From Mobula hypostoma (taxonomy: Eukaryota), in contig NC_086108.1 in the NCBI RefSeq assembly GCF_963921235.1, forward strand, positions 43,278,001-43,342,000: DNA of 64,000 nucleotides, given 5' to 3'. Shown in pieces: positions 269-53,434 of the stretch; the stretch's first letter is position 1, and each line of letters starts with the position of its first letter. A program made the position numbers and the translations under genes. Under the pieces are notes generated by a model. The model worked only from the letters and a program-made list of their open reading frames with translations, had not been told where the DNA came from and did no database searches.

Positions 269-1278
269 CAAGGTTGACTGCCCCTTATCCGAAGTGTCTG
301 GGGCCGGAAGCCTTTCAGATTTTGGAATACTTACATCTATATAATGAGATAGCTTGGGAATGAAACCCAAGTTTAAACACAAGATCCATTTACATTACAT
401 ATACAGTTTAACTCACAACACGCTGGAGGAACTCAGCAGGTCGGGCAGCATCTGTGGAAAAGATCGTTTGATGCTTCGGGCCAGAACCCTTCGTCAGGAC
501 TGTGACAAAGGGTTCCGGCCCGAAACATCGACTGATCTTTTCCACGGACGCTGCCTGACCTGCTGAGTTCCTCCAGCATGTTGTGAGTGTTGCTTTGACC
601 CCAGCATCTGCAGATTATTTTGTGTTTACATATACAGTTTATAATATATTTAATAATTTTGTACATGAAACAATAATGCATACACTGAACCACCAGAAAG
701 GTAAGCTATCACTACCTCAACCACCCAGGTGGACAGTCAGTGACTATTTGGCAGCTCCACCATTCATGACTCTGAACTTATGTGCTACCGGTCAAAAGTT
801 TTTGTCTTACACTTGTTCATCACACATATGTCCTGACGCAACCATTCAGCATGTTAGAATTTCATCGGCGACAATCTTGGCAAACTCATCAATAAATTTC
901 TCTGCTGCGTCATGATCAGGTGTTCTATCAACACAAATCTTTTAAAATTTCATGGTGTGCCTTTTCTTAAATTCCTGCAACCAGCCTGCTGAATATTCAT
1001 GATTACCTTTAATTGTCAGTTCATGATGGATCTTTGCTTGTTTCATGATGAGCATATGTTCATGAAGAATCTTTAATTGTTTCGTTATCAGCATATGTTC
1101 ACTGACGCTGATGAATCCACTCAGAATTCACTTCTGTTCATTATATATGTGAGGTCACTTCGCAGAACTGTTTGTGGTGTGCAGAGATCTGTGCATCGTC
1201 TAGGAATTATCCCAGCACCTTGTGGAATTTTCAGAGGTTTTCGGACATTGGAATTTTGGATAAGGGGAGCTCAACCTG
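269..1278 (-). mobile_element. Tigger/pogo-like DNA transposon, internally deleted
   Basis: TIRs CAAGGTTGACTGCCCCTTATCCGAA (269-) and TTGGATAAGGGGAGCTCAACCTG (-1278), flanked by TA on both sides. The - strand remnant EYSAGWLQEFKKRH (~960-1000) resembles the CENP-B-type HTH of pogo/Tigger transposases. Confidence 0.8.
411..625. mobile_element. Penelope pLTR-derived fold-back mini-element
   Basis: Inverted arms with apex near 498-502; 16-bp TSD TTACATATACAGTTTA at 395-410 and 626-641; similar to the pLTR at 9580-9690 and near-identical to 50964-51087. Confidence 0.85.
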
Positions 1279-3328
1279 TATTTTTGTTTCCATGTAATTT
1301 GGAGGCTTCCATTGTGTAGTTAGAATGCTGGAAACATTCAGGCAGCAATTGAAGAGAAACAGAGAAGAGCTTGTCCAAGTTAATGCCAAGTGTTTCCAAC
1401 ATTTTCTTTTTTATTTCAGATTTCTAGCATGTACACTTTAAAAAAAACCTTCTGACAATTAACAATGTAAAATGTAGCACGAATTCGTATCAGCCATGTT
1501 TTCTAATTGGATTCAGAGCAAAAAAAATCTCACGGAGACAAAAATATTTAAAAATAATGGTCTATTTGGTCACTCACACCAACGTCATTTAATAAAATCA
1601 TAATTGATCTCTACATTGGATATACCCAGCAAGAGCTGCTACAGAATTCCATAGAGTCACCACCATCTGAAAACATTTCTCTGCATTTCTTTACTGAACC
1701 ATTGTCCCCGTTTTGAAATTGTGGTTCCTGGTTCTAAACACCTGGTGTGAGGAAACATCATACCTAAATCTAGTCTGTCAGACCCCATAATAATTTTTGC
1801 CTGTTTCAGTGATGTAATTTTCTAATGCTCTCATTCAAAATTCATTCAAATGGATAAAGCTCTAATAATAAGTTCCATAACCATGATTACCCAAAAGTTT
1901 GAACAGTTTTAGGAGGTAGCCCCATCTAGCAAACTACTAGCAATTCACAAACAACATACTACGAGCTCAAGTTCATGATGTAATACTCTCTTTATTACTC
2001 TGTTTCAAGAAAGCAGTCATATTGGAATATTCAATTAGTTTCCTCATGATTGTAGACTGTATCTGCCTAGCTGCAGAAGTTTTACACTGAAGTATTTTCC
2101 ATACTATATTGTTACAGACACAAAACAATATATAAGGTATCAATGACTCCTTGCCTACCGCACCAATCCCTTTTTTGTCCTCATTATGAGCTGCTTTCTT
2201 AACAGCAGAAATTGCATATGTGGTTCTGCCTATTTGTCTTCCATGAAATCACTTATCAACTCTTCCAAGGAAATTTAAAAGCAAATGCCAAATTAATTTT
2301 AAGTAGTATAGTCCATAATGCAGTAGATTAAAGTTGAAAACAGTCAGGGGACATGAAAAATATTAACAATTGGTAAAGAGGAAAACAAAGCCTGTGTTTT
2401 AAGATTTTCAAGATTCCAATAGAAGGGAAGCTCTAAAGAATAAAACAGTGTTGAATGTTGCTTTCAAAATAACTAGTTGTAATGTATGTAAGAGCAAGTA
2501 AAACCAGTCATATCAAGAATTACTTGTATCCTGTCCAGGAGCCTTGTGTCAAAAATGTAGAAGTGCTTCTGCTGTCTGCACAGAGCATTCAAAATGGTTT
2601 ACAACATCTAGTATTCTTTTCTTTTTACATACAGATTAATGTCATTAAGTTACTGTAAGCTACTTGGTTTGTTTGGCAATATTGCAGGTCTGAGGAATCA
2701 TCTCAAGAATTCACACATAATTTTGATTTATACTAATACAACACTGAATTTCATGAGGTAATAGCTTTTTAGGATAAATAGCAAACTTGAGATGTTAATG
2801 TTACTCTATTGAGAAGGAAAACAAATTATTCTGATAGTTGATCCAATATACTTTCTTCAACCTAAAAACATTAGTGTCTGCATGTCAAAAGCATCCCAAT
2901 GATTGGTGAGATACATTAGTTCATTCAACCTTCAGCCATGAAAGAAGCTATCTAAACTACAAGTTTGTCTTTCTTTGACACAGGGCAGCCAGCCATACAT
3001 CCCATTTCTATTTGTGGGATTTTGTTGTGTACAGATACCTCATTTGTACACTGGACTGTAACAATGTTTGAAGGAAATGATGAGGCACAATTCAAACACA
3101 ATAGTCTTTAAAACAAAAATTATTCACCAGATTACATGGTCAATATTAAGTTGTACTCTTAGAAATTTTCTTATACAAAACACAAGACAAATGAAGAGGT
3201 ACACTCTTGCATTGTAAAATACGTCCTAGTCAAAAATTAACCAGTAAATCAATTTTATGAACAAAAGATTTGTTGACTGGGCCCACAGCAATTCTGGAAC
3301 ACAAAATCATCATTTGGAATCAACTTAC

Positions 3329-3404
3329 CATTCCTTCACATTAACTTCTGTAATCCCTTCTCCAATGTCAGAAAGTTTAAACTGAACAACTTGACCATTA
3401 ACAG
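3329..3404 (-). CDS. DBT: DBT exon 3 (start of lipoyl domain)
   Basis: ttgcag|CT GTT AAT...GAA TG|gtaagt; 76 nt, phase 1 to 2; translates (A)[24 protein letters not shown](W), matching vertebrate [26 protein letters not shown]. Confidence 0.96.
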
Positions 3405-3497
3405 CTGCAAAAGTAAGTAAAAGGTAAGTCAACAGTTGACACAACTAACCATGTTAAATTAGGAGTTCAAAGAGAAACTAGTGAACATTGCAATTAC

Positions 3498-3618: not shown

Positions 3619-4113
3619 CTGGCAGAGAAACAGAGACAATTAACAGATGTAACAATATAGACTTCAATGGCAGTATTGCAATTGTAACAACCTCTAAGAA
3701 ATGGGAAAGGGAAAATTGAGAAATTTGACATTTGCAATTCAAAATCTCTTCCTATGCTCTTCACAGAGAATGGGCAATCATTCATAACTTCTGTTACTGC
3801 TACTGCTGAACAACAGGAAACAAAAACAGCATTATTGGGAAGGACCCATCACCTTGAATAGCAGTGGTCAGTGGTCAGTGGTCTTGGCTGTTGGTCTGCC
3901 AAGACAGCATCAATTATGGTTTAACCACAAGAGAAACTTCTGCCTCAAACTGGCAGAAGGCCAAACATCTTGTGCAAAGGGCAAAGAAGTCATTTTCCCA
4001 CAAGGACATATTTCTATGTGTATGATGGGGGTATATTGCTTACCTCTGAGCTTCATTATCAATTATCTGGCCAATCAATGCCATCACAAACTTTGACAAA
4101 TATGCTCTTAGAA

Positions 4114-4342
4114 TCGCAAACAGGAGGAAATCTGCAGATGCTGGAATTTCAAGCATCACACACACAAAAGTTGCTGGTGGATGCAGCAGGCCAGGCAGCA
4201 TCTATAGGAAGAGGTACAGTCGATGTTTTGGGCTGAGACCCTCCGTCAGGACTAACGAAGGGTCTCGGCCCGAAACGTCGACTGTACCTCTTCCCATAGA
4301 TGCTGCCCGGCCTGCTGCGTTCACCAGCAACTTTTATGTGTG
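4114..4342. mobile_element. Penelope pLTR-derived fold-back mini-element
   Basis: Inverted arms with apex near 4250-4256; 12-bp TSD ATGCTCTTAGAA at 4102-4113 and 4343-4354. Confidence 0.87.
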
Positions 4343-4629
4343 ATGCTCTTAGAAGTTATTTTAAAAGTTAATGCTTTTAAGAGTAAAAGCAGCTAGAAGC
4401 TCCAACCATTCCCCTTTTTTACTATGCAATATGAAACAGTAATGATGAAAACACCAGTGAAACAATTTTAATCATCCTGTATGCCCTATTACCATAGAAT
4501 GCAACAAGTATAGTTTATGGTTAACCGTATTTTTCCATTGTGTTGAATTTGATTTTCACTAAAGTGAACCTTACCCTGCTATACAGAGAATTTATCCAAA
4601 ATAGTTTAACAGTTAAATAATTAAGTCAA

Positions 4630-6534: not shown

Positions 6535-8031
6535 CAGGTGTCCCCCGCTTTTCGAACGATCACTTTACAGAACCTCACTGCTACAAAAGACCTACATTAG
6601 TACCCTGTTTTCGCAAACAGAAGGTGTTTTCACTGTTACGATAAAAGTCAGCGCGCACCCCGAGCAGCCGCTTTCCCCCGGATTCGGAACTGCGTTCTCA
6701 CCGGCATTGCTTAAACACGTGCCTGTGAGCAGTCATTTGCAAGATGAGTTCTATGGTATCGGAAAAGCCTGAAAGAGCTCATAAGGGTGTTACACTTAGC
6801 GTAAAACTAGACATAATTAAGCGTTTTGATCGTGGTGAATGAAGTAAGGACAAAATGAGCCTGGCTTGTGGAAGCTGACGAGGATGATGTTGAGGAGGTT
6901 TTGGCATCCCATGACCAAGAACTGATAGATGAAGAGCTGATGCAATTGGAAGAGGAAAGGATAACAATCGAAACCGAATGAGTAATGATAAAGTAATTTT
7001 GAAAGGGTACGTCAGTTTAGGGCATATTTGCAGGATGGTTTGAGTGCTTACAAAGAACTGTATGACAGAAAAATGCGCGAGGCTCAGCAGTCAAGCAAGC
7101 TTTCCACATCAGCCACAGCAGACGACGAACCTCGACCTTCGACATTGAAGCGGGCAGTCATAGGAGATGAGCTGCCTGCTCTAATGGAAACAGACGACTA
7201 TGGGATGACACCCCAGTGTCCCACCACCCCAACACCAAGGCCTCAGACAGATACCGATTCGCGGAGAATGCAGCAGTAGCCGGGAGGCACACAGCACATC
7301 TTTAAGAAAAAAGCCGAAATAAACGTGCTAATTAGGTGCCGCCCAACACGTAATTGTCGGCCCAGATCAGAGGTGATGCAATTGGCAATCAGCACTGATC
7401 TGGGCCGACAATTACATGCCGTGAGGCACCTAATTAATTAGCATGTTTATTTTGGCTTTTTTCTTAAAGATATGCTGTGTGTCTCCTGGCTACCACTGTA
7501 CCCCTGCATGCTTCGCAGATCGGTATCGATTTGCTGCCCGGAGGGTGGGGGCCACTGCACCACCCAAACTCCGACGACTCAGTCTAACACACCACCATCA
7601 GTGTGCTCCGTGCTTTCCCAATCCCGAATTATTTCTACTTTATAACAGCTGTGTATTTTTACGTGTTATTTGGTATGATTTGGCAGCTTCATAGCTTAAA
7701 GGTTACTGCAGAGCGCTTGCGCCGTGTTTTTGCTGACTGCGCTTGCGTGAGTTTTTCGCTACGGAGAACAGTTCAGGCAATGATTGTGGAAAAGTATTTC
7801 TACTTTATATAAGCTGTGTATTTATCATATCATTCCTGCTTTTACTATAGTTACAGTTATTTTAGGTTTTATGTGTTATTTGGCATGATTTGGTAGGTTA
7901 TTTTTGGGTCTGCGAACGCTCACAAAATATTCCCATATAAATAAATGGTAATTGCTTCTTCACTTTATGACATTCCGGCTTACGAACCGTTTCATAGGAA
8001 CGCTCTACCTTCAGATGGCGGGGGAAACCTG
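6535..8031 (+). mobile_element. Tigger/pogo-like non-autonomous DNA transposon, copy A
   Basis: Ends CAGGTGTCCCCCGC...GCGGGGGAAACCTG with TA on both sides; transposase C-terminal remnant at 7028-7279; highly similar to 10060-11535 in reverse orientation. Confidence 0.85.
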
Positions 8032-8779
8032 TATATGGTGACGTATATGTACTTCAGTAATAAATCTACTTTGAACTTTGAAGCAGCTTCATGTGCGGCA
8101 CCTTGTCAAAGCCAGGTAAACAAAATCCAACTAACTCTTTGTCTATCCTGCCTGTTATTTCCTCAAAGACTTCCAACAGATCTGTCAGGCAAGATTTCCC
8201 CTGAAGGAAACCATGCTGACTCTGGCCTATTTTACCATGTGCCTCGAGTAGCCCAAAACTTCATCCTTAATAATGGACTCCAAAATCTACCCAACCATTG
8301 AAGTCAGGCCAATTGGCCTACAACTTCCTTCTGCCTCCCTTCCTTCTTAAACAGTGGAGAGATATTTGTAATTTTTCTGTACTCTGGAACCATTCCAGAA
8401 TCTAGCGATTTTTGAAAGATCATTACTCTGCCTCCATAACCTCTTTAGCTACCTCTTTCAGAACCCTGGCACGTAGACCACCTGGGCCAGGTGACTTATC
8501 TATATTCGGACCTTGCGGCTTCCCAAGCACCTTCGCCTTAGTAGTAGCAACTACACTCACTCCTGCCCCTAGATATTCTCAAATTTCAGTATACAGGTAG
8601 TGCCTTCCACAGTGACTGACAAAAACATCCCCCATTTCTACCCCCCCCCAGCAATTATTACCTCTCCAACATCACTTTCCAGCAGTCCAAAATCCAATCT
8701 CACCTCTCTCTCTTACCCTTTATATATCTGAAAAACTTTGGTATCTTCTTTTATATTATTGGTTAGCTTACCATCATAT

Positions 8780-9690
8780 TCCACATCTTTCCCTCCCCCC
8801 CGCCCTCTGCTTTCTGCAGGGATCGCTCCCTACGTGACTCCCTTGTCCATTCGGGCCCCCCATCCCTCCCCACTGATCTCCCTCCTGGCACTTATCCGTG
8901 TAAGCGGAACAAGTGCTACACATGCCCTTACACTTCCTCCCTTACCACCATTCAGGGCCCCAGACAGTCCTTCCAGGTGAGGCGACACTTCACCTGTGAG
9001 TCGGCTGGGGTGATATACTGCGTCTTGTGCTCCCGATGTGGTCTTCTATATATTGGCGAGACCCGACGCAGACTGGGAGACCGCCTCGCTGAACACCTAC
9101 GCTCTGTCCACCAGAGAAAGCAGGATCTCCCAGTGGCCACACATTTTAATTCCACATCCCATTCCCATTCTGACATGTCTATCCACGGCCTCCTCTACTG
9201 TAAAGATGAAGCCACACTCAGGTTGGAGGAACAACACCTTATATTCCGTCTGGGTAGCTTCCAACCTGATGGCATGAACATCGACTTTTCTAACTTCCAC
9301 TAATGCCCCACCTCCCCCTCGTACCCCATCCGTTATTTATTTTTATACACACATTCTTTCTCTCACTCTCCTTTTTCTCCCTCTGACTATACCCCTTGCC
9401 CATCATCTGGGTTCTCACCCCCTTGTCTTTCTCCCCAGACCTCCTGTCCCATGATCCTCTCATATCCCCTTTGCCAATCACCTGTCCAGCTCTTGGCTCC
9501 ATCCCTCCCCCTCCTGTCTTCTCCTATCATTTTGGATCTCCCCTCCCCCTCCCAGTTTCAAATCTCTTACCAACTCTTCCTTCAGTTAGTCCTGATGAAG
9601 GGTCTCGGCCTGAAACGTCGACTGTACCTCCTCCTAGAGATGCTGCCTGGCCTGCTGCGTTCACCAGCAACTTTGATGTGTGTTGCTATT
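8780..9690 (+). mobile_element. Penelope-like element 3' part: GIY-YIG endonuclease plus pLTR
   Basis: ORF 8977-9303 has VIYCVLCSRCGLLYIGETRRRLGDRLAEH...VATHFN...EQHLIFRLGSFQPDGMN (GIY-YIG with Cys-rich motif typical of PLEs), followed by a pyrimidine-rich 3' UTR and the pLTR. Confidence 0.92.
9588..9623 (+). ncRNA. Minimal type I hammerhead ribozyme motif in Penelope pLTR
   Basis: AGUC-CUGAUGA-AGGGUCUCGGCCU-GAAAC-GUC^GACU: stem I AGUC/GACU, core CUGANGA and GAAA, stem II AGG/CCU, collapsed palindromic stem III (ACGU). Activity untested. Confidence 0.75.
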
Positions 9691-15274: not shown

Positions 15275-15309
15275 GTGTAAGTATTGTGTACAATTAGTAA
15301 AATTACAAA

Positions 15310-15505
15310 CAACAAGCTGTTGCTGGAGGAACTTGCTGGATCAGGCAGCATCTGAGGAAGAAAACTGAAAGTAGATATAGTTGGATTAAGACCATTGACC
15401 AAAATGTCAACACCTCATTTCTCTCACAGATGCTGTCCAATCTATTTAGTTCCACCACAGTTTGTTTTTGTTCCAGACACCAGTATCTTCAGTCTCTTGA
15501 GTCTC
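15310..15505. mobile_element. Old Penelope pLTR fold-back element
   Basis: TGCTGGAGGAACTTGCTGGATCAGGCAGCATCTG...CAGATGCTGTCC...TAGTTCCACCACAG degenerate inverted arms of the same family. Confidence 0.65.
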
Positions 15506-17259
15506 ATTTAAAATTACAAGATGAATTCAAGGCCAGCATTTCTGAAATTAGTGCAGCAAGGATCAGTAAACAACAGAGGTTGTGACATTTTAAGCAGTAT
15601 TGTAGCCAAAAATCCAATTGTACAGTTAAAAAGCGATTCTAGGCAACTCTTAGCTTTGATTGATAATTTAGATGTACTTGTGGGAGGTTCAGGGAATCAC
15701 AGCAGAAAAGTACAGAATTTCAAAGATCCATTTACTTCCAAAATCTTGTTATTTGCATTCATAATATCACCTTTGGAAATTCAGAGTAAGATCTTTTTTC
15801 AAACAACACAAGGATAAGGGTAGCAACACACAGAATGCTGGAGGAAACCTCAACCGTACTTTTTTCCACAGATGCTGCTTGGCCTGGTGAGTTTCTCCAA
15901 CATTTTGTTTGTGTATCTTGCTTAGATTTTCAGCATCTTCAGATTTCCTCTTGATAAGGATAAAGGGAATTTCATCAAATTTAAGATATTCCTTTGTTAC
16001 ATTTTATGAGGTTAAAAGGCTGATTGAAATTAGAGATATGAAGCCTTAGATATCAACTTCCAGTACCTTTGAGAGCCAATATCTTATTAATACTCAAAGA
16101 ACTGTGATGGTTTGATACTCTTGGTTGTGTAATTTGAAGCTGTCAATCTACCCAAGAGTTACCAACATCTGTGGAATGCTCTGCCTCAGAAGGCAGTGGA
16201 GACCAATTCTCTGGATGCTTTCAAGAAACAGTTAGATAGAGCTCTTAATGATAGCAGAGTCAAGGGATATGGGAAGAAGGCAGGAACGGGGTACTGATTG
16301 TGGATGATCAGCCATGATCACAGTGAATGGTGGTACTGGCTTGAAGGGCCGAATGGCCTACTCCTGTACCTATTGTCTATTGTCTTAACCTCATATCACC
16401 ACCATATATGTACAGATAATATGAAGTGTGGAAATGTACATTACTTCTCCTGCTCCAGTAAAGAACATAACACATCAGGAAGTTAATTGTGGTTTTACTA
16501 CTTTTAAATTATCTGAATTAAATGCTTTGATGATTTACCTGCATCATTATTTGCACAACATAGAATGGAAAGATATTTAAAGGCTGAATCATGACCCCAA
16601 ATCATTTGACCTTCAATGTTATTCAATAGCCCCTGTTCCATTTTGTAATTATACATACCATAGTGCAAACAGTGAAACATGGTTAGTTAATGGAAGAGTA
16701 AGGGCAAATGTTACATTTTTTTATTTGCAACTGGTTGAATATTACATACTTTCCTTGAAATTTAATCTAATCAATGTTGAGTATTAGTTATAAAGGAAAA
16801 ACTCCACATTCAATCACTAATCATCTCCATTGGCTTGAATGTCAAGATCAAAGTTCTGCAGCTTGAAGATTTTTCTGTATATTTTGTTTTGATCATTTAA
16901 CCAGTCCTTACAATTATTACAATTCCATTCCCTCGAAAACACTGTCATCCCCATATTTTATTTGTTCTTCACTTTATAAAAATCATAATATATCAGTACA
17001 TGGGGGTTGGAGGAATATAGTAATTTTGCATCTGCACTATATAAAACACTGCAATTGTCCAAATGCTGAACATGCAATACTTACCAAGAAAATCTTAAAA
17101 ACTGTATGGATTAACTTAAGTTAACTGAAAGGAATGTAGTTAGTAAGGCAAAGTTGAGACCATCATTTGCACAGTATGATGGGTTACAATAGAATTAAAT
17201 TACTAACAACTTTACAAAATGTCAACTACTACTGATTTGATAAAATGAGTTCTTTCCAG

Positions 17260-19830: not shown

Positions 19831-19914
19831 AGTTGAAACCTTCCCTCTGTGCCGCTGGTAATCTCTTTCTGTGACAAAGCTCAGGCCAGAATGTCTCTTT
19901 CAAGAGCCAAAGGG

Positions 19915-20105
19915 GACTGCAGGCGCTGGAATCAGGAATATCACAAAAAGTGCTGGAGGAACTCAGCAGGTCAGGCAGCGTTTGTGGAGGGAGATGGACA
20001 GTCGACGTTTCAGGTCGTAACACAACCTGGACTACAGTCGACTGTCTACTACCCATAACAGATGTAGTCTGTCCCGCTGAGTTCCTCCACAGCTTTTTGT
20101 GTTGC
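19915..20105. mobile_element. Older Penelope pLTR fold-back element
   Basis: TGCTGGAGGAACTCAGCAGGTCAGGCAGC...GCTGAGTTCCTCCACAGC inverted arms; apex near the GAAACGTCGAC motif. Confidence 0.75.
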
Positions 20106-20169
20106 TTCTATGTCATGGCATGGAGAACATGTTGGCCTGTACGATGAAGTCAACTGAGTGTGATAGAAC

Positions 20170-20386
20170 ACAAACACGAGGAAATCTGCAGATGTTGGAA
20201 TTTCAAGCAACACATATAAAAGTTGCTGGTGAATGCAGCAGGCCAGGCAGCATCTCTAGGAAGAGGTACAGTCAAAGTTCTGGGCCGAGTAGTACAGACG
20301 AAGTGTCTCGGCCCGAAACTTCGACTGTACCTCTTCCTAGAGATGCTGCTTGGCCTGCTGTGTTCACCAGCAACTTTGATGGGTGT
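20170..20386. mobile_element. Penelope pLTR-derived fold-back mini-element
   Basis: Inverted arms with apex ~20288-20297; 15-bp TSD TGAGTGTGATAGAAC at 20155-20169 and 20387-20401. Confidence 0.88.
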
Positions 20387-21448
20387 TGAGTGTGATAGAA
20401 CCTGGATCTGAGGCTGTTTGCATGGGAGAGAATGTTGATTCTGGTTCCCTAAATCTTGCAGTCCATTTGAAAGATAAAGTGGAGACAAGCTGTAGGAATA
20501 TTGTATGCAGTTCTGGTCATCCAGCCATAGAAAGGAAAGAGTACAAAAAAGATTTATGGGGATATTACCAGAACTGAAGTGCTTGATGAAAAGGAGAGGG
20601 TGGAATGTTTCTCCTTGGAAGATAGGAGGTTGAGGGGTTACCTTACAGAAGTATATACAATCATAAAGGGAGTCATAGTCTTTTTTCCCAGGGTAGAGTT
20701 TAAAACGAGAGGATGTATGCTTAAGCTGAGAGTGGAAAGATTTAAAGGGAAACTTTTTCACACGGGGTGATGATTATATGGAACGAGCTGCCAGAGGAAG
20801 CTGTAGAGGCGGGTACATCCAAGACATAGGGCTTAACATCCAAGAATACATATTGTGTCGAAAGGACAGGCAGGTAGACGGAGGTGGTGGGGTGGCTCTG
20901 TTGGTAAAAAAAATTAAATCAAACCTTTAGAAGGAGGTGATATAGAATCAGAAAATCATTGTGGGTAGAGTTAAGAAAGTGCAAGGGTAAAAAAGACCTT
21001 GATGGGTGTATTACACAAGCCTATGAACAGTAGCCAGGATGTGGGGTACAAATTACAATGAGAGATAAAAGAGGCGTGTAAGAAGGTCAATTTTATGATA
21101 ATCCTGGGGAATTTAAATATGCGGGTAGACTGGGAAAATTGGTTTGGTGCTGGATCCCAAGAGAAGGAATTTGGAGAATACCTCCGAGTTGGATTTTTCG
21201 AGTAGTTGATGTTGAGCCGCTAGGGAAAAAACAATTCTGGATTAGGTGTTGTGTAATGAAACTGATTTGATTAGGGAACATAAGATAAAGGAACTCTTAG
21301 GAAGCAGTGATCAAAATTTGATAGAATTCACCCTGAAGTTTGATGGGGAGAAGCTAACTTAAGATATGTCAGTATTATAGAGGAGTACACTTGAAGATGG
21401 CACCAGCAACCAAACACGCCGTCCTGCAGACTGTTCATGGAATTACTT

Positions 21449-21862
21449 TTTATATTTTTTTATATATTTGTTTTATATATTTTTTCTCTCTTTTCTCCCT
21501 CTGTCTCTCTCACTATAACTCCTTGCCCATCCTCTGGGTCCCCATCCCCCCACCTTTCTTTCTCCCTAGGCCTCCCATCCCATGTCTTCTCCGTTCTCCA
21601 GTCTCGTATCCCTTTTGCCAATCAACTGTCTAGCTCTTAGCTCCACCCCTCCTCCTCCTGTCTTCTCCTATCATTTCGGATCTCCCCCTCCCCCTTTCAA
21701 ATCTCTTACTATCGCTTCTTTCAGTTAGTCCTGATGAAGAGTCTCGGCCCGAAACGTCGACTGTACCTCTTCCTATAGATGCTGCCTGGCCTGCTGCGTT
21801 CCATCAGCATTTTGTGTGTGTTGCTTGAATTTCCGGCATCTACAGATTTCCTCGTGTTTGCG
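21449..21862 (+). mobile_element. Penelope 3' UTR/pLTR copy
   Basis: Homologous to 9335-9690 and includes the terminal extension; diverged 14-bp TSD TCATGGAATTACTT (21435-21448) and TCATGAAACTACTT (21863-21876). Confidence 0.85.
21727..21762 (+). ncRNA. Minimal type I hammerhead ribozyme motif
   Basis: AGUC-CUGAUGA-AGAGUCUCGGCCC-GAAAC-GUC^GACU; core intact, stem II weakened by a G>A change. Confidence 0.6.
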
Positions 21863-31829: not shown

Positions 31830-31915
31830 CAACATACATCAAAGTTGCTGCGTTCACCAGCAACTTTGATGTATGTTGCTTGAATTTCCAGCATCTGCAG
31901 AATTCCTGTTGTTTG
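31830..31915. mobile_element. 86-bp Penelope fold-back micro-insertion
   Basis: 21-bp perfect stem (31830-31850 with 31858-31878) plus the pLTR terminal extension; 14-bp TSD TATTTCCCATTAAT at 31816-31829 and 31916-31929. Confidence 0.88.
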
Positions 31916-33329
31916 TATTTCCCATTAATAATCATTTGGACCAGTATGAGCAATTACCTTTTAGTATTGCTAAAAATCAATTTACTTACCTTGGTATTAA
32001 AGTTACTAAGAATTTTAAAGATCAGTATAAATATAATTTTCTCCCATTAATTGATTATACCAACAAATACTTTCTAAATGGTCTCCTATGACGCTATCAT
32101 TAATTGGTCGAATTAATACTATTAAAATGATAGTTCTACCGAACTTTTTATATACATTTCAATCAGTTCCTTCATTTGCTCCTAAATGGTTTTTTGACAG
32201 AATAGACTTGAAAATTTTATCCTATATTTGGAACAATAAAAATCCTAGATTGAGTAAACCTTTATTGCAGAAATTTAAAAAGGATGGTGGTATGGCTTTG
32301 CCAAATCTGTACTACTGGGCAATTAATATTCGATATATTACCTGTTGGATTCATTATTCAGACATATATGACTGTCCTTTATGGGTGGATTTGGAGAAAA
32401 ACTCGGTGAAGGGGTATTCCTTGGCCTCTTTACTGGGAGCTCCTCTTCCTCTTCTGTTCTCTAAAATTGGTAAACAAGACCTTAATCCTATTATTAAACA
32501 TACATTAAGAATTTGGTTTCAGTTTTGCAGATTTTTTTAATTAAGTAATTTTGTCCTTTCTCGTAAAATATATTTTAAACCATCAATTTTAGATCAGGCT
32601 TTTTAAATTTGGAAAACCAAAGCAATAGTAACTTTTTTGGATTTGTTTATAGGGGATTGCTTAATGTCTTTTACTCTGCTAGCGGATAAATTTGATTTAT
32701 CCAATGTACACTTTTTTAGATATTTACAAATTAGGAATTTTTTTTACGTACTTTGCTTCCAAATTATCCCTCCGCTTAGCCATCTAATATAATAGATACC
32801 CTCTTCCAGGTTAAACCACTCCAAAAAGGATTAATAGCTACAATTTATAAATGGTTATTGAATTTACGAATTATATCTAACGATAAAATTAAAGGTGCGT
32901 GGGAATTGGAATTTCAAGAGTTACTTTCAGATAATCAATGGAGTAAAATTTTTCATCTGGTAAATACTTCATCTATTTGTGCCTGTCATTCCTTGATACA
33001 GTTCAGGGTAGTGCATCGGGCACATATGTCAAAGGATAGATTAACCTGTATTTTTCCCAATATTAATCCTATTTGTGATAGATGTAATACTCAGGTGGCC
33101 ACTTTAACTCACATGATTTGGTCTTGCATAAAATTGGAGAATTTTTGGAAAGGTGTTTTTAAAACCTTATCAAAAGTGCTGGATCTGGATTTACAACCAA
33201 ACTTATTTACAGCTATTTTTGGGATTATTCCATCGGAAGCAAGATGTACTCCTGCTTCTGCTCAGCAGATGATAGCCTTTTCAACCCTATTGGCAAGGAA
33301 AGCCATTTTACTTAAATGGAAGGACCCAT

Positions 33330-36300: not shown

Positions 36301-37006
36301 GGAGGAGCAGAGGGATCTCGGGGTACATGTCCACAGATCCCTGAAAGTTGCCTCACAGGTAGATAGGGTAGTTAAGAAAGCTTATGGGGTGTTAGCTTTC
36401 ATAAGTCGAGGGATAGAGTTTAAGAGTTGCGATGTAACGATGCAGCTCTATAAAATTCTGGTTAGGCCACACTTGGAGTACTGTGTCCAGTTCTGGTCAC
36501 CTCACTATAGGAAGGCTGTGGAAGCATTGGAAAGGGTACAGAGGAGATTTACCAGGATGCTGCCTGGTTTAGAAAGTATGCATTATGATCAGAGATTAAG
36601 GGAGCTAGAGCTTTACTCTTTGGAGAGAAGGAGGATGAGAGGAGACATGATAGAGGTGTACAAGATAACAAGAGGAATAGATAGAGTGGATAGCCAGTGC
36701 CTCTTCCCCTGGGCACCACTGCTCAATACAAGAGGACATGGCTTTAAGGTAAGGGGTGGGAAGTTCAAGGGGGATATTAGAGGAAGGTTTTTTTACTCAG
36801 GGGGTGGTTGGTGCGTGGAATGCACTGCCTGAGTCAGTGGTGGAGGCAGATACACTAGTGAAGTTTAAGAGATTACTGGACAGGTATATGGAGGAATTTA
36901 AGGTGGGGGCTTATATGGGAGGCAGGGTTTGAGGGTCAGCACAACATTGTGGGCCGAAGGGCCTGTACTGTGCTGTACTATTCTATTTTCTATGTTCTAT
37001 GTTCTA
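33330..37006 (+). mobile_element. Long CR1 LINE (ORF1 esterase, APE endonuclease, RT), frameshifted
   Basis: SGNH esterase motifs VIGDSIVRG, HVGTN, DGLHLN (33330-34037); endonuclease LNARSI..K, ITETWL, SDH; RT DFSKAFDK, KFADD; (TTCTATG)n tail ending ~37006. Confidence 0.92.
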
Positions 37007-37849: not shown

Positions 37850-38110
37850 ATGATAAGGGGCGGGGTTCGAGGAGTATCAATGAGAGACAAAACAGAAAAT
37901 GCAAGCAGCGTTTAGCAGGTCACGTTGCATCTGTACGAAGAAGACTGGACTGACTGAAGAGGCGGGGTTTGAGCGGTGATGGTGTGAGGGGTGGGTTTAA
38001 TGTGAGAGGCGGAATTTGATTGGCGACTGCGTAAAGGAGCCAGGTTGGCTTTTTTGTGCAGGTCTCTGTCTTACGTGGGTGCTAGACTTTCACGGTTCCA
38101 CTCGGCAACA
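37850..38110 (+). promoter_or_regulatory. RTCA CpG-island promoter
   Basis: GC boxes GGGGCGGGG (37857-37865) and GAGGCGGGG (~37959); reverse CCAAT (ATTGG, 38019-38023); CpG-rich to ~38640; immediately upstream of the ATG. Confidence 0.6.
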
Positions 38111-38152: not shown

Positions 38153-39496
38153 GTGAGTGATGCGTGGAGTTAGTCTCCGCTGTAAATCTCTCGGTTGGGC
38201 CTGTGCTGCTTCGCGCTGTCTGCATGGCTTTGGGCCCGAGTGCGGAAATCTACCGATAATATTGTTTGAACTCAAATCAGAGGTTGGAGTGCGAAATAAA
38301 GCGGTCGGTCTCAGGCGGAATATTACCTCGTCTCGATTCTCGACCCATTAATTTAGTGTGTGCTTGATATTGGTCAATTAGAGCTATTAATGATAATTTG
38401 ATGTCTGACAGCTAGCGGGAAATAAACCTAGTACTGGTCGGCCATGCATATGTATTTCTGCCCGGGTTTCGAGAGATGAAGGGACTCTGGATTTGGGGCT
38501 TCTGCGTTGCCTGTTTGCAAAAATCTCAATATCGCTGCCTTTCTCTATCCTCCGCCGCACCCCCCCACCCCCCACAAGATCGATAATAATACCATAAAGG
38601 GGAGTCGGGTGGCTATTAGGGCACTTCATGCGGTTACGAATTGACTAATAGGAAACTCCAATCCTGTTATGATGTTTCTTAATGTATTTCACAGGTCTTT
38701 TTACCTAATAAAGACCCGTATCGTTTATGGGTAGCTTGCGAATATATCAGTGATTGTTAACAAATGTCACGTGTATTGATATGCCTGCCATGATTCAGGA
38801 GGTAGTTTTGACTCGAATTGGATTGTGGATTTGCTCTCCTGAAGTCTCCCATGAAGTCAACTTATGTGTCTACATTGACACCCAGTTATAGAGTAATAAA
38901 ATCATACATGCAGAAACAAGTCGTTCAACCCAATGACTTTATGCGAACCATCCAACACCAACCCCCAACAGAATTTGGGTTAGTTGATGGGAATAAGGGA
39001 GAATGGAATGGCTTGCAGTAGGATTAGTGTTCGACCATTTGTGTAAGCTTGGGCTGAAGAAGCTGTTTTGTGTAGTATTCCTATGATTTTTTTAAAAATC
39101 TACTCTAGATTAAGCTATACATTCCTTTATAATTGAAGTGTAACCTCTTAAGGTTAATACCACATATAATAAAGGATCACATTGTTGTCCTTCCTCATTA
39201 ATTGGCATACTTAGATTCTAGCCTTTTGCAAATCTTCACTAGGACACACAGACCCCTTTGTCATTACAAGGCTTGACAATCTCTCACAATTAAGATCATT
39301 GGTCTGCTTTCTTGTCAACATTAACAGTTTTTACAGTGTCCCACGGTGTATTCCAGTTGATAAATTTTGCACACGGACTTGACCTGTGTCGATCAACTGC
39401 CTGGAACATTCAAGGACATGAAACAACTCCCAAATATCAAAAGTATAGTGTAATTAATTGGTCTTATTTAAGCTTAAAAACTTAACCTGGAACTAA

Positions 39497-40250
39497 GCAA
39501 CACACAAAATTCTAGAGGAAATCAGCAGGTCAGGTATCATCTATGGAAATGAATAAACAGTCAACATTTCGGACCAAGACCCTTCTTCAGGACTGGAAAG
39601 GAAAGGAGAAGATGTCAGAATAAAAAGATAAGGAAGTGGAAAGGAGGATAGCTAGAAGGTGATAGGTGAAGCCATGTTGGCAGGAAAGGGGAGAGAAAGG
39701 AATCTGATGGGAGAGGAGAGTGGATCTTAGGAGAAACGGAAGGAGGAGGGGACCAAGGTTGAAGGAGATAGGCAGGTGAGAAATGGTAAAGGCCTGAATT
39801 GGGAATAGAGGAAGAAGGGAAGGGGAGAGGGAATTTCTTTTTGTCAGAAGGAGAATTCTATATTCATACCATCAGGTTGCAAGCTACCCAGACTGAATAA
39901 AAGGTGTTGTTCCTCCACCCTGAGGGTGGCCTCATCATGGCACAAGAGGAGGTCGGGGTCAGAATGGGAATTAAAATGTTTGGCACCGGAAAGTTTCACT
40001 TGTGGCGGATGGAGTGGGGGTGCTCGACGAAGCAGTCCCCAATTTATGACAGGTCTCACCAATGTAGAGGAGGCTGCATTGGGAGCACCGGACACAATAG
40101 CTGACCCTAGCAGATTCACAGGGGAAGTGATGCCTCACATGGAAGGACTGTTTGGGACCCTGAATGGAAGTGAAGGAGGAGGTGAATGGGCAGGTGTAGC
40201 ACTTTGGCTGCTTGCAGGGATAAGTGCCAGGAGGGAGATTAGTGGGGAGA
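39497..40250 (-). mobile_element. Penelope-like element 3' part (GIY-YIG remnant plus pLTR)
   Basis: - strand ORF ...HFNSHSD...DEATLRVEEQHLLFSLGSLQPDGMNIEF (39844-40119) and pLTR at ~39500-39600. Confidence 0.88.
39558..39595 (-). ncRNA. Minimal hammerhead-like motif
   Basis: CAGUC-CUGAAGA-AGGGUCUUGGUCC-GAAAU-GUU^GACUG; 5-bp stem I and core retained, stem III palindrome altered. Confidence 0.5.
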
Positions 40251-40874
40251 GATGAATGAACAAAGGAATCACAGAGGGAGTGATCCCTGTGGAAAGCAGA
40301 GGGGTGGATGTTTGGTGGTAGGATCCTTTTGGAGATGGCAGAAATTGCAGATGATGATGTTTTAGATGCAGATTTTAGGTAAGAAGAGGAACTCTATTAC
40401 AATTAAGGTGGGTGGATTGGCCCTCAGCAGATTTCTCCCTTGCAATTGAGTTTTACATTTATTTTATTATAGTTGTTGCTACTATGGTTATGCCTTCATC
40501 TGAGAGTATTCATTATTCCATTCTCTTTATAGAACAGTAATACCTGATCTCACTTTGTCTCCAGAATGTGTAGTTCAAGGAAAGTATCCCAAAAAAGCTT
40601 GATGAGCTCCTGTTTTAGGTTATCTTTTCTATGCTGAATCATGGCAGACACGTCAATACATGTGATATTTGTAGAATAAAATTCCCCTACTCCCCAAATA
40701 TCACTTTTTTACAATCTGTTCAACTGTGTAGTTATTGTTATAGGGCCTGTATAATGTACCCAAACAATTTCTACAACCTGAATCTGTTACACTTGACCAT
40801 CAATAATTAACAGAATAATTTCTGTATCGTTTCCTTGCTTCCTTTCCTCTTTAGATGCCAAACCCTTCAATATT

Positions 40875-45769: not shown

Positions 45770-46325
45770 AGAGGAGATGGTTGTATTGGGAAAGTGCCAA
45801 GGGCATGGGGAGGGACAGTCTGGAGTGATGAATAGACCAGGGGGTCAGAAAGGGAGTGCTCTGCAGTAAGTTCAAAGAGTGGGGAGGGAGGTGCGACTGG
45901 TGGTGGAATTGTGGAGCTGCTGAAAATGCTGGAGGATGATATATTGGATGTGGAGATTGGTGAGTGACAGATGAGAATGAAGGGACCTCTGTTGTTCTGC
46001 CTAGAGAGGATGAGTGAGAGCAAAAGTGTGGAAATGGAGGAAATGTGTGTGAGGGCTCTATCCCCTATTGGGCAGGGTTTGCCACATTTCTGGAAGGAGG
46101 ACTTTTCAGAAAGCCTGGAGAAAAAGACCACATCTTCAGAAAAGATGTGGCTGAAATGGAGAAATTAGAAAAGGGATAGCATCTTTCAGAGACAGGATGG
46201 GAGGAAGTCACGGTAACAAAAGGAGTCAATATGCATCTTGTGCTACCACTGATGCTGCCTGTTGAGTTCTTACAGCATTCAGTTTTCTGTTTCATATTCC
46301 AGCGTCTGCAGTCTCTTTTGTTTCT
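45770..46325. mobile_element. Old Penelope remnant (coding piece on - strand, pLTR tail on + strand)
   Basis: - strand SSHPVSE..YPFSNF resembles the PLE RT C-terminus; + strand GATGCTGCCTG..GAGTT...CAGCGTCTGCAGTCTC is the pLTR end. Confidence 0.55.
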
Positions 46326-46989
46326 CTTTAATGTCTATTAGCCATTTGCATCTTAAATTTCTTGTCTATTTCCCCTTTAAATTATTGTTATCTTTGCTGC
46401 TATGACTTATTAAGGATAGGTCATTTGGTCCTTTGCTCCACCATTCATCAAGGTCATGGCTGTTCTCCTAATTTTCCTAGATGATTAACATACCTTTGAT
46501 TCACATACTGTCAAGAAATCTTTTGATCTGTTTTGAATAAACTCAATATCTGCATGGAAAATTACAAAGATTCAACATCCTTTGCATGAAAAAAAATTTT
46601 GCCCCATCTTATTGCTTTTCCTTGCTAGTAATTTAATCAGGAAATATCCTCCCTGCATCCAGCCAGTCAAGCATTCTGTGAATTTCAATGTAATTGCCTT
46701 TAATTATTTCTAAACTTTACAGAATATGGGCACAGTGAACCATTCTAGTGAATATTTCCCTCCTTGGGAGGAATATTCTTTTTCTTGAAAAAGGACATTA
46801 AAAATATAACCAGACCGTTACTATCTCTCATCCATCTTCTAAAGTCAAGTTCTGCTTTACTTTTAATTACATTAGGAGATAAAGTAGGCACTTGGCTTCT
46901 TGAGCCTGCTCGGAATTTCATGGTTGTCTTCTATTTAACACCATCTTTCTGCCTTATCCCTTGATTCATCAAACAATCAACACCGATTG

Positions 46990-50597: not shown

Positions 50598-50963
50598 GTA
50601 AGCATAGATAGGCATAGCTGCATTTTAATGAAGAGAAAAAATGTCTTGCTTTTATCTTTTACACTTTTAGGATCCCTGAATTTGAAGCCAATCTTTAGCA
50701 TCTGCAATTGATATTGAACATTATATCTTGCTCATCAGAAGAAAATGAATAAACAATTTATTTTTATTTTAATTTCTATGGCTTCTGATAAGTCTTAGCT
50801 TAGAAGTTTGTGAAAGGTCCAAATATTTAACTCAAACTGGTGACACTCTTTGAAGTTCCGATGTTTGATATTGTTAGGATTCACTGAGCATCTGAAAGTG
50901 GTAAGAAAGCTTCTGTCATGGCATCCTGGAATGCAAGGATCTTGGTCAGAGGAGGTGTTGGGT

Positions 50964-51087
50964 AAACACAAAATAATCTGCAGATGCTGGGGTCAAAGCA
51001 ACACTCACAACACGCTGGAGGAACTCAGCAGGTTGGGCAGCATCCGTGGAAAAGATCGGTTGACGTTTCGGGCCGGAACCCTTCGTC
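50964..51087 (-). mobile_element. Single-arm Penelope pLTR mini-insertion starting at the hammerhead core
   Basis: - strand begins (CCT)GACGAAGGGTTCCGGCCCGAAACGTC; 11-bp TSD AGGTGTTGGGT at 50953-50963 and 51088-51098. Confidence 0.87.
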
Positions 51088-53434
51088 AGGTGTTGGGTGT
51101 TAGTCTTTAGCTTCCTTAGCTAGTGTAAACTGTGATGGAGCTTCCCAACATTCAATTTTTATATGAGAGTGCATCACAACGATTTTTTTTGTCTTCCTCT
51201 AAATTGATTGCATGAAGCTTCCAACAAATCTGTGTGAACTTTATTTAATATTGTAAAGTCTATTATGGTATATTGTATTTTATGGATGACTAACACTACA
51301 GAAACTGAAACTATCTTTAAGTTTTTTTTAAAGTTTACATCACAAGTCACCTTTTTTTCTTGGCTTTTTTCTTTGGGGTATTCGCTGCTGATGTTAGAAT
51401 AGTGCTTCTGATATAGAAGAACCTCCCAACTAAAAATGGGCACTGAGCTCAAATGGGAGGTACTGAGAGGGGTAACCCAAAGGAGTGAGGTGAAGAAGTA
51501 ATTGGGAAAGTAACTGGAGAACGTTCCAATGCGGCAGAACGCATGGATCATCATATTTGAAGAAAGGGAAGGTGGTGATGGAGGAATTGTGTAAGAGGAT
51601 AGAAACTGTGAAGAGGGTTTAAACCTAAATTTGAGATATTTGGAATAGGAACTTTCCTATGCTTATTGGAGGTAATTGCCTCTATTAGACAAATGATGTA
51701 CAGTTTTCCACTGAAGATGCTTGTAAAAGTACCACCTTTCAACTACCAAGTTCAACTGCATTGGCTAGTCTGTTCAATTCAGGCATAAATTATGTTTTAA
51801 CTCTTCTGACATAGAAATGAATGACTCTGTCCTTCAATACCATTGTTTGCAAATGTATTTAATTGCTGCTGTACTGGGAACTTTTGACAAAAGCACTTTG
51901 TCAGTTATTGGTAGCTATGACATTTTGTTGCCTTTGTGAGAGTAATTCTGGCCGGTCTGCTCAAGAATGGTAAGTTTTGGTCCCCGTAAGTAAGTTTTGA
52001 TGTACCTGTTCTGTTTGGTTTGTGTTTTTTGTTTGTGCGGGAGGAGGGATTTGGGGGTTGACGTGCATGTTCCATTTTTGTTGTTTTTTATGTGCGTGGA
52101 GCAGGGATTTTGGGGGTTGATGATCGTGCTGCCTTTCTTTTCTTTCTTGGTTTCATGGCTACCCGGAGAAGAAGAATTTCAAGTAATATACTTGGATAAT
52201 AAATGAACCTTTGAATTATAGTTAATATGCAATATATAAACCAGTTTTTTAATGCTCAAACAGTTCTGCGCTGAAGTGAGAGAGTATACTGCAGTCATCT
52301 TTATCAGATTTAGGCCTCCAAATGCAGTTATGCCACGTTAACAAAATTGGGCTTCAGTCACCATTGAATGCTTTCAAAATCCCAGACTGTCGATCACTTC
52401 TCAACTGTTAAAAGCTGTGTTTAGAATAAATATATCTCCCTTAAAATAATTACTTGCTTTCCCTGGACGTTGTAATGCTGACTATTTCTCTATTACTACA
52501 AAGATTCGAAGCTGCCATCTGCGTGTGAAAACATTTCCTTGTGAGTGGTTGTTTAACCATCTGCAGATTAAATATCTCCTCACTTTTAAGCTCAGCCTTT
52601 TGTTATCAGTGTTCTCAGCTGCCTATCTGGCAATTACAAGATTTAACTTTGTATGCTTATTCTTGTGTTGCACTGTTGCATCCATTTTAATAGGTACAAT
52701 GGGAGATTGGGAATGAATGCAATTTAGTGATTAATGGTGAATGCAATTTTAGACTGGGGTACAGCAACAGAATTTCTTGCTAGCTGAACCTTGTGGTAGT
52801 TAGAAAATATGAGGTGGGCCAGGAAAAAAAATTGCAGTGATTGCTGTTGGAGGTAACAAGACCATAAGGGTTTCCCAGAAGAAGGAGTGAAATGAGCGAA
52901 GAGCAGATCAAGGGAAAGTTCAATTAAAAATAAATAGTCTCAGTAATGAACTGGATAATGGCACAAGAAGCAGAAATTGGGCTTAATTAGACATGAAGTG
53001 AGACTGATCAGCAATCTGTGTTTGAGGGCAGGAAATTGTAACTTAAGCTTAAAAGATCAGGACTTGTATTCAGAATTGAGTAAATTTTAAATACAAAAGT
53101 ATTGTGAATAAATTTTGAATTACCTGGAATATTATTTTCAGAGAGAAATCAATTTGATGGAGGTTCCTTGGTTTTGTAAAGTGAACCTATAAGTAATTTT
53201 AACGTGCAACACCAAGAGTCTATCACTCAGCATTGCATTGTTTTCCTGAGAAGATTGTCAGATGAGCCTTTGCATTACTGATAAGCCAATTTATCTCTCT
53301 GCTGTGCTTGTGAGACACTTCTGTGAATTTTCAAAATTGCTGATTTATTTTTGTCAGAAAGACATTTGTTATGAACAGTATTTCCATTTTGATATGCCAT
53401 TAATTTAGAAGGTCAATTGTGTTTTGTTTACCAG

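What the first reader, a model, noticed from the sequence alone, without database searches (positions are those of the whole stretch)
395..51098. Fold-back Penelope mini-elements with long TSDs whose apex or 5' end maps to the ribozyme core
Seen: copies at 411-625, 4114-4342 and 20170-20386 are hairpins with exact 16, 12 and 15 bp TSDs. In each, the turn-around lies in the AGTCCTGACGAAG...GAAAC hammerhead. The single-arm copy at 50964-51087 (11-bp TSD) begins exactly at CCTGACGA, and older copies at 15310 and 19915 fold near the same place. One arm always keeps a ~35-40 nt terminal extension and the other lacks it. Established: inverted pLTRs and a short terminal tail are known PLE traits. Inference: the breakpoints cluster about 25-30 nt upstream of the predicted cleavage site rather than at it. 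This suggests reverse transcriptase stalls or self-primes on the ribozyme fold, producing a stereotyped non-autonomous, MITE-like retroelement. This is the best candidate for an undescribed system in the window.
Basis: partly seen in the sequence, partly recalled or inferred. Interest (0 to 1): 0.75.

Follow-up and report, generated by a model that had tools for sequence, protein, structure and literature searches.

The report
Penelope stubs ending at ribozyme edge
These short hairpins are truncated insertions of a known class of jumping gene (Penelope-like) in a ray-like fish genome, each likely made afresh rather than copied as a unit; the one uncommon detail is that most stop at the same few bases beside the ribozyme motif, probably where the element's RNA begins.

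Summary
The hairpins, target-site duplications and one-sided tails are real. They are 3' ends of a Neptune-type Penelope-like element; an endonuclease-bearing copy lies at 8767-9687. The window holds 13 copies, 7 of them hairpins. All 7 junctions differ and the arms are no closer within a copy than between copies, so this is not a MITE-like unit. The layout (inverted pseudo-LTR, 30-40 bp tail, TSD) is published. What survives is a sharp limit: in 4 well-preserved hairpins, and probably a fifth, the farther arm stops 4-7 nt before the hammerhead core, 32-35 nt upstream of the cut site; partner arms scatter. A stall on the fold fits poorly: the fold is weak and the stop is on its far side. One-strand self-priming cannot make 2 of 7 hairpins. 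Best model: both target ends are primed at two internal start sites, and cDNA runs off the RNA 5' end (inferred, about 55%). No genome was held, so the sample is small. The scan noted the same pattern before in this and other genomes. A refinement of known biology.

The parts
395..641 (.). Hairpin copy, subfamily B: 16-bp TSD (395-410, 626-641); tail-less arm 411-502 (sense on -, reaches -5/-6); tail-bearing arm 503-625 (sense on +, starts about +2); 37-nt tail 589-625
4102..4354 (.). Hairpin copy, subfamily A: 12-bp TSD (4102-4113, 4343-4354); tail-bearing arm 4114-4254/4256 (sense on -, reaches -5 to -7); tail-less arm 4255/4257-4342; 2-nt junction microhomology; junction centred on the local quasi-palindrome
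8767..9303 (+). 5'-truncated ORF of the parent element: C-X4-C-X2-C linker and GIY-YIG endonuclease (Neptune-type)
   Evidence: PF01541, E 2e-4, 22.0 bits, just under the 22.6 cut-off; relatives with RT motifs upstream
9304..9687 (+). 3' UTR, minimal hammerhead (helix I 5' strand 9588-9591, core from 9592, predicted cut after 9619) and tail-less 3' end of the ORF-bearing copy; no TSD found
15298..15519 (.). Old hairpin copy with 11-bp TSD; tail-bearing arm on + probably from about -5; tail-less arm from about +26; junction reading uncertain
15810..15963 (.).
19912..20107 (.). Old hairpin, no TSD found; tail-bearing arm (sense on -) reaches -5 at 20034; tail-less arm starts +26 at 20037
20155..20401 (.). 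Hairpin copy, subfamily A: 15-bp TSD; tail-bearing arm 20170-20289 (sense on -, starts +13); tail-less arm 20290-20386 (reaches -5); 0-1 nt microhomology
21460..21862 (+). Single-arm copy that reads through: about 265 nt of 3' UTR, hammerhead 21727-21762 (C3 = 21731, cut after 21758), tail to 21862; used as the coordinate reference
31816..31929 (.).
37859..37969 (-). Old single-arm copy, 9-bp TSD; begins with upstream-like sequence at about -13 but lacks the ribozyme core
39495..40303 (-). Long tail-less copy of another subfamily with a decayed endonuclease region; reads through the ribozyme
46232..46354 (+). Old single-arm copy, 8-bp TSD, starts near +45 (downstream of the ribozyme)
50953..51098 (-). 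Single-arm copy, subfamily B: 11-bp TSD; body 50964-51087 with tail; 5' junction at -1 to +3 through a 3-nt microhomology with the TSD

Best explanation
These are short 3'-end insertions of a Neptune-type Penelope-like retrotransposon, each likely formed anew when the enzyme primes both ends of a staggered cut at two internal start sites on its RNA and the copies probably run off the RNA's 5' end just before the hammerhead. Steps: (1) staggered cleavage of the target gives the 8-16 bp duplication (TSDs shown; cleavage of both strands shown in vitro for the Anolis element). (2) One target end primes at the outer start site (tail end, about +130) and the other at the inner site (about +90 to +96), which gives the 37-45 nt one-sided tail (two fixed 3' ends shown here; their being start sites is taken from PMC11167929). 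(3) On the 5'-most copy of the leader in the transcript the template ends about 95-135 nt later, at -4/-5, so the farther cDNA stops there (inferred). (4) The two cDNA 3' ends are joined head to head through 0-5 nt of microhomology, by annealing or by a short fold-back, after variable trimming or early stop of the partner (junctions shown; route inferred). Priming at one site only gives single-arm copies; priming on a downstream copy of the repeat gives the long read-through copies. The ribozyme cut is not what sets the end. My odds: Penelope-like origin 0.97, formed at each insertion 0.9, twin priming 0.75, limit = RNA 5' end 0.55.
For: Parent ORF and repeat in the window; ray proteins 73-91% identical, and in those read (3 of 9) RT-type motifs precede the same endonuclease. 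7 of 7 junctions differ. Arms within a copy 90% alike, between copies of subfamily A 84-97%. In 411 and 20170 the tail-less arm reaches farther 5' than the tail-bearing arm, so both arms needed their own template. The far arm ends at -5 at least in 4 of 4 well-preserved ribozyme-spanning hairpins, whether the junction uses the local palindrome (411, 4114) or not (20170, 19917). In runs of other samples the 6 opposite-strand joints listed have their far end at -4, -3, -2, +11, +12 and +20, none in the 200 nt of covered 3' UTR (15 joints shown, 64 not shown). A pyrimidine-pyrimidine-A initiator-like match (motif recalled) sits at -4 in 3 of 3 long copies. PMC11167929: both strands are cut and extended, two internal start sites bound the tail, uncleaved RNA is the main template. 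PMC2377424: the D. virilis promoter is internal to the repeat.
Against: Only 13 copies; no genome was held and the public collections gave no further copies. With a short geometric length null, 4 of 13 is not significant (p = 0.05-0.12); hammerhead-poor Chlamys elements make insertions of median 128 bp by plain truncation (PMC9977147). No RNA 5' end was observed: only contigs were available and no place of many starts was listed. The initiator-like motif is common here (4 in 403, 9 in 384, 10 in 406 nt; also shared at about -31 and -130). In D. virilis the start lies about 120 nt upstream of helix I, with an intron ending at helix I (PMC2377424, PMC4209133), so a start at helix I would differ from the one mapped case. 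In one search loose ends at -4 (863 and 730 contigs) have a pyrimidine-rich consensus, so many are read-through copies of other subfamilies whose likeness to the reference simply ends there; the joints at -4 to -2 may share this artefact. The in vitro paper saw no difference in start site between strands, so the one-site-per-end rule is inferred.
Confidence: 0.6

Rival explanations
1. Same twin-primed insertions, but the limit is a stop on a longer RNA: the enzyme pauses at the 5' strand of helix I because of the ribozyme (as dimer, or with bound protein), or the cDNA end snaps back on its own helix I complement.
For: The limit coincides with the 5' edge of helix I in all subfamilies. Isolated, helix I pairs with probability 0.90-0.96 (46-nt piece). 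Two old hairpins have one arm at -5 and the other at about +26, the two sides of the ribozyme. PMC11167929 shows that the protein changes how this RNA folds.
Against: In context helix I pairs with probability 0-0.22 and the region folds no better than shuffles. A helix blocks from its 3' side. The predicted cDNA fold does not pair the helix I complement in 3 of 3 tests. Snap-back predicts a partner arm starting at +29 with the helix shared; 0 of 7 junctions show that. Three long copies pass through.
Confidence: 0.2
2. The limit reflects joining or later editing rather than synthesis: cDNAs of varied length are captured by the short quasi-palindrome centred at -2/-1, or perfect palindromes were trimmed after insertion.
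For: 4114 is centred exactly on this palindrome and 411 within 2 nt; 31830 is centred on another natural 5-bp inverted repeat. PMC3846280 reports palindromes at inverted junctions and reads them as self-priming.
Against: 20170 and 19917 end at -5 without using the palindrome (0-2 nt microhomology); single-arm 50964 also starts there.
Confidence: 0.1
3. The clustering is a by-product of a generally short cDNA length (about 100-135 nt) and small numbers.
For: 4 of 13 in 4 nt has p = 0.05-0.12 under geometric nulls of mean 50-70 nt; median 128 bp for Chlamys insertions (PMC9977147).
Against: Arms primed about 40 nt apart end at the same base (tail-less in 411 and 20170, tail-bearing in 4114 and 19917), which points to position and not length; 5 of 13 has p at most 0.017.
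Confidence: 0.05
4. A non-autonomous MITE-like hairpin amplified as a unit.
For: Similar size (215-229 bp) and layout of three copies.
Against: 7 of 7 junctions differ; TSDs of 8-16 bp; several subfamilies; same sequence in single-arm and ORF-linked copies.
Confidence: 0.03
5. The limit is a splice acceptor (as in D. virilis, where the intron ends at helix I) and the stubs copy spliced RNA with a tiny first exon.
For: Pyrimidine tract and AG precede helix I in 3 of 3 long copies; PMC4209133.
Against: No GTRAG donor in the 265-288 nt upstream in 3 of 3 copies; junction fillers are 0-2 nt with no shared exon; RNA contigs show the same upstream consensus as DNA in the rows listed.
Confidence: 0.02

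Closest known systems
Insertion units of endonuclease-bearing Penelope-like elements (Arkhipova et al. 2013, PMC3846280; Craig et al. 2021, PMC8557442)
   Same: Inverted 5'-truncated pseudo-LTR at the 5' end, 30-40 bp tail on one side, 8-10 bp TSD, head-to-head junction with short palindrome, heavy 5' truncation.
   Different: Here the whole insertion is often only the two inverted arms (86-229 bp), TSDs reach 16 bp, and the far arm ends within a few bases of helix I; the passages read give no such limit.
Poseidon of Anolis carolinensis, in vitro (Frangieh et al. 2024, PMC11167929)
   Same: Two internal RT start sites bounding the tail, both target strands cut and extended, hammerhead about 100-130 nt upstream, cleavage not needed, no reads ending at the cut site.
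   Different: Poseidon clade versus a Neptune-type linker here; there the ORF starts inside the ribozyme, here no reading frame is shared across subfamilies; that paper does not treat inverted junctions or 5' ends of genomic stubs in the parts read.
Minimal type I hammerheads of metazoan PLEs (Cervera and De la Pena 2014, PMC4209133)
   Same: Short helix I, extra base between positions 9 and 10.1, palindromic ACGU in place of helix III, thousands of dispersed single motifs, pairs on opposite strands 100-700 bp apart.
   Different: Opposite-strand pairs here are back to back within one ribozyme length; no intron donor upstream, unlike D. virilis.
Non-LTR retrozymes (Li et al. 2026, bioRxiv 10.64898/2026.07.22.740005)
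   Same: Non-coding, PLE pseudo-LTR-derived, hammerhead-bearing, present in a cartilaginous fish.
   Different: Defined by direct tandem repeats; none in this window, where copies are dispersed, inverted or single.
Twin-primed 5'-inverted L1 insertions (recalled; search listing of PMC2837659 only)
   Same: Both target ends prime on the RNA and give an inverted, TSD-flanked insertion joined by microhomology.
   Different: In L1 the two cDNAs cover different parts of the RNA; here start sites about 40 nt apart make the arms overlap, which gives a hairpin.

Membership tests
Penelope-like element, Neptune type | C-terminal GIY-YIG endonuclease | tested here: met
   ORF 8767-9303, PF01541 E 2e-4, 22.0 bits against a cut-off of 22.6; ends just before the 3' UTR and repeat
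Penelope-like element, Neptune type | C-X2-5-C-x-x-C linker before the endonuclease (PMC8557442) | tested here: met
   C-X4-C-X2-C visible in the translation and in 3 of 3 relatives read
Penelope-like element, Neptune type | Reverse transcriptase upstream in the same ORF | tested here: inconclusive
   Absent from the truncated window copies; YIDD-type motif by eye in relatives P0001 and P0005, but Pfam gave no RT hit for 3 of 3
Penelope-like element, Neptune type | Placement in the Neptune clade by RT phylogeny | not tested
   No reference set fetched
Penelope-like element, Neptune type | Minimal hammerhead in the terminal repeat | tested here: met
   Core motifs, helix I and II by alignment and folding; Rfam gave 0 matches at gathering score; activity not testable
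Penelope-like element, Neptune type | Inverted pseudo-LTR and one-sided 30-40 bp tail with TSD | tested here: met
   tails 37-45 nt
MITE (unit-amplified non-autonomous element) | Copies share one internal structure and junction | tested here: not met
   7 of 7 junctions differ
MITE (unit-amplified non-autonomous element) | Symmetric terminal inverted repeats and a family-specific TSD length (recalled) | tested here: not met
   One terminus carries an unpaired tail; TSDs 8-16 bp
Non-LTR retrozyme | Direct tandem repeats with a hammerhead in consecutive units | tested here: not met
   0 of 9 tandem-repeat rows involve the element; one direct-repeat joint listed in two other runs
SINE-like non-autonomous retroelement | Short copies are themselves transcribed and serve as templates | not testable with these tools
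   No raw RNA reads; no tRNA-derived head (0 tRNA genes)

The most novel reading that the evidence does not exclude
The 135-nt leader from the start site through the hammerhead to the two RT start sites is a self-contained cis unit. The stubs are the Penelope equivalent of strong-stop cDNA caught in the genome; they map the element's transcription start to the 5' edge of helix I in vivo, and stubs that reach -4 keep an internal promoter, so they are transcribed and recopied in trans as a SINE-like single-arm family, with hairpins as the twin-primed by-product.
Probability: 0.2. Interest if true: 0.55.

Novelty: new variant of a known kind. Interest (0 to 1): 0.3.

Why it matters
How Penelope-like elements finish an insertion, why they make inverted ends and what their hammerhead does are open questions. 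A very abundant family (86,475 and 76,241 contigs laid on 450 bases in two DNA runs) with clean TSDs is a natural data set: far-arm ends could map the RNA 5' end, and junctions where each arm holds unique sequence argue for two primings over the self-priming reading in print. It does not define a new kind of element.

Tried and rejected
No whole genome was held, so the genome-wide plot could not be made. Rfam at gathering score: 0 matches. Pattern scans: viral contigs 1, 2 and 0 matches (the one read, L001, is unrelated; L116 and L117 were not examined); metagenome contigs 114 matches, and of the 115 loci then held none had more than a 41-base partial match to the element; genome contigs 0. 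Protein-based locus searches in viral and genome contigs: none confirmed. Phage records: no match. Look-up of earlier findings by sequence and by nearby place: nothing. Sequencing runs: no RNA holder listed; all laid runs were contigs, so depth, starts and strand could not be used, and no place of many starts was listed. Depth showed no clean step at the ribozyme and is confounded by subfamily likeness; not used. TSD searches for the three long copies and for 19917 found nothing convincing. A weak fragment at 52511-52570 (E 0.08) was left out of the count of 13. Cleavage-site origin of the 5' ends rejected: 0 of 7 far arms end at +29. Supplements of PMC11167929 held as text had no hit for three terms; its supplementary figures and the bioRxiv supplements could not be seen and may show end positions of genomic copies.


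Full report
1. Observation. The three main hairpins are there: arms 411-496/503-588, 4159-4249/4252-4342 and 20208-20289/20307-20388, 88-89% complementary. Exact direct repeats of 16, 12, 15 and 11 bp flank the copies at 411, 4114, 20170 and 50964, and 11 bp the copy at 15309. A null of 3000 random positions gave 11 bp or more in 0.43% and 8 bp or more in 2.1%. One duplication is shown to be a real insertion mark: the copy at 31830 interrupts an L1-like reverse-transcriptase frame whose left and right flanks, translated separately, continue each other across one copy of the 14-bp repeat.

2. Census. BLAST and a profile built from eight arms give 13 copies: 7 hairpins (411, 4114, 15309, 15818, 19917, 20170, 31830), 3 short single arms (37868, 46240, 50964) and 3 long copies that read through the ribozyme (9687, 21460, 39495). 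A weak fragment at 52511 was left out. 9 of the 10 short copies have an 8-16 bp TSD; 19917 and the long copies have none that I could find.

3. Identity. The repeat follows an ORF at 8767-9303 with a C-X4-C-X2-C linker and a GIY-YIG match (E 2e-4, just under the cut-off). Its 9 longer relatives are 73-91% identical and annotated in Mobula and Hypanus; in the three read, RT-type motifs precede the endonuclease by eye, though Pfam gave no RT hit. By the description in PMC8557442 (passages) that linker marks Neptune or Nematis; I call it Neptune-type without a tree. The sense strand carries a minimal hammerhead of the kind in PMC4209133 (parts 1-2 of 4 read): a 4-5 bp helix I, an extra base after position 9, and a palindromic ACGU in place of helix III. 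With C3 as +1 the predicted cut is after +28. Rfam has no match. The family is very abundant: 86,475 and 76,241 contigs of two DNA runs were laid on 450 bases.

4. Where the arms end. Far arm and partner: 411, -5/-6 (tail-less) and +2; 4114, -5 to -7 (tail-bearing) and +4 to +6; 20170, -5 (tail-less) and +13; 19917, -5 (tail-bearing) and +26; 15309, about -5 and about +26 (degenerate); 15818, +21 and +69; 31830, +62 and about +67. Single arms start at -1 to +3 (50964, with 3 nt shared with the TSD), about +45 (46240) and about -13 with the core missing (37868). So there is a limit at the 5' edge of helix I, 32-35 nt upstream of the cut, and a scatter downstream of it. No hairpin arm passes -7. 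Post hoc scan tests: 4 of 7 in 4 nt, p = 0.0002-0.01; 4 of 13, p = 0.003-0.14; 5 of 13, p = 0.0001-0.017 (uniform nulls of 80-340 nt and geometric nulls). In other samples, the 6 opposite-strand joints among the 15 shown have far ends at -4, -3, -2, +11, +12 and +20 (64 joints not shown). This is weak support: other subfamilies cease to resemble the reference at -4, and the loose ends there have a pyrimidine-rich consensus, so many are read-through copies.

5. Not a unit. All 7 junctions differ. Subfamily-A arms (4114, 20170, 31830) are 84-97% identical to one another and to the repeat of ORF-bearing copy 9687; the two arms of one hairpin are 90% alike; the arms of 411 are 92-95% like single-arm 50964. 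The same sequence thus occurs as hairpin, single arm and long copy.

6. Mechanism. PMC11167929 (parts 1-2 of 4 read; text supplements searched, no hit) shows for the Anolis element that both target strands are cut and extended, that reverse transcription starts at two internal sites bounding the tail, and that uncleaved RNA is the main template. Here the tail-less end also closes the long single-arm copies 9687 and 39495, so it behaves as a start site. Two cDNAs of the same polarity, attached to opposite ends of a staggered cut and joined at their 3' ends, give a head-to-head hairpin with a one-sided tail and a TSD. One-strand fold-back cannot make 411 or 20170: there the tail-less arm has 5' bases that the tail-bearing arm lacks, and the tail-bearing arm has the tail. 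In the other 5 the tail-bearing arm is the longer, and fold-back or annealing cannot be told apart; 31830 turns on a natural 5-bp inverted repeat and 4114 on the quasi-palindrome around -2/-1. PMC3846280 (passages and Discussion read) reads such junction palindromes as self-priming.

7. What sets the limit. A stall on the fold is unlikely. Five pieces fold no better than shuffles (z -0.69 to +0.89). Helix I pairs with probability 0.90-0.96 in a 46-nt piece but 0-0.22 in four whole leaders, and a downstream stem near +47/+110 is more stable (0.48-0.99 in the two copies that hold it). The enzyme meets a helix from the 3' side, yet the limit is on the 5' edge. The limit holds for arms primed 40 nt apart and for junctions that do not use the palindrome. 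A template end explains this most simply: initiation on the first copy of the leader in the transcript, then run-off. An initiator-like match (recalled motif) lies at -4 in 3 of 3 long copies, but the motif is common here. Against: no RNA end was seen; in D. virilis the start lies at 371 and the intron (416-491) ends at helix I, about 120 nt downstream (PMC2377424, parts 2-3 of 4 read; PMC4209133); I found no donor upstream here. Plain truncation also gives short stubs: median 128 bp for Chlamys (PMC9977147, passages). I put the RNA 5' end at about 55%.

8. Known and new. Inverted pseudo-LTR, one-sided tail and TSD are described (PMC3846280; PMC8557442); opposite-strand hammerhead pairs too (PMC4209133). 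Retrozymes are direct tandems (bioRxiv 10.64898/2026.07.22.740005, parts 1-3 of 5 read; supplements closed) and none is in the window. Nine searches of the library gave no paper that reports a limit of stub 5' ends at helix I; the library lacks most subscription papers and Repbase. Earlier notes of this scan report the same hairpins and the same limit in this and other genomes; they are unchecked and are not counted as support.

9. Verdict. Real feature; known class and layout; the MITE-like and stall readings are not supported; a modest, testable refinement remains. New variant of a known kind, interest 0.3.

Noticed in passing
window 7271-7498 and 10647-10742: A second, unrelated family of long inverted repeats (86-89% complementary arms) occurs twice with different apexes.
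   Followed up: no
window 37868-37960 (-): Old TSD-flanked copy that begins with sequence like the bases upstream of helix I and resumes downstream of it, lacking the ribozyme core; could be a skip across the ribozyme or a later deletion.
   Followed up: partly
window 21764-21786 and equivalents: All subfamilies keep a pyrimidine tract followed by AG and ATG just after the ribozyme (+48), like a splice acceptor, with the core's CTGAY as a possible branch point; the same bases form a stem with +103 to +111, which may explain the conservation. No shared reading frame follows.
   Followed up: partly
window 15309-15508 and 19912-20107: In both old hairpins the tail-less arm begins at about +26, within 3 nt of the predicted cut site, while the other arm reaches -5.
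   Followed up: partly
window 21819 to 21727 (joint in runs X1 and X4): A direct-repeat joint from the tail-less end back to -4 was listed in two runs of different organisms, with about 29 other letters between in X4; may be a short partial tandem.
   Followed up: no
window 31125-33337: Decayed L1-like element (RVT_1 and zf-RVT matches) that hosts the 31830 hairpin.
   Followed up: partly
window 22905-24533, 33300-36832, 59091-61089: Several decayed LINE copies; 22905-24533 is a 542-residue open frame with an RVT_1 match.
   Followed up: no
window 51092-51098: The flank just outside the TSD of copy 50964 holds a 7-base match, on the opposite strand, to the bases upstream of the core in subfamily A; probably chance.
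   Followed up: no
window 58146-58457: Perfect two-copy tandem of 154 bases; recent duplication or assembly artefact.
   Followed up: no
P0003, P0004, P0007: Ray gene models named as host genes (kinase, mucin-2, chitinase-domain) include this element's endonuclease region, probably exonised repeats or annotation error.
   Followed up: no
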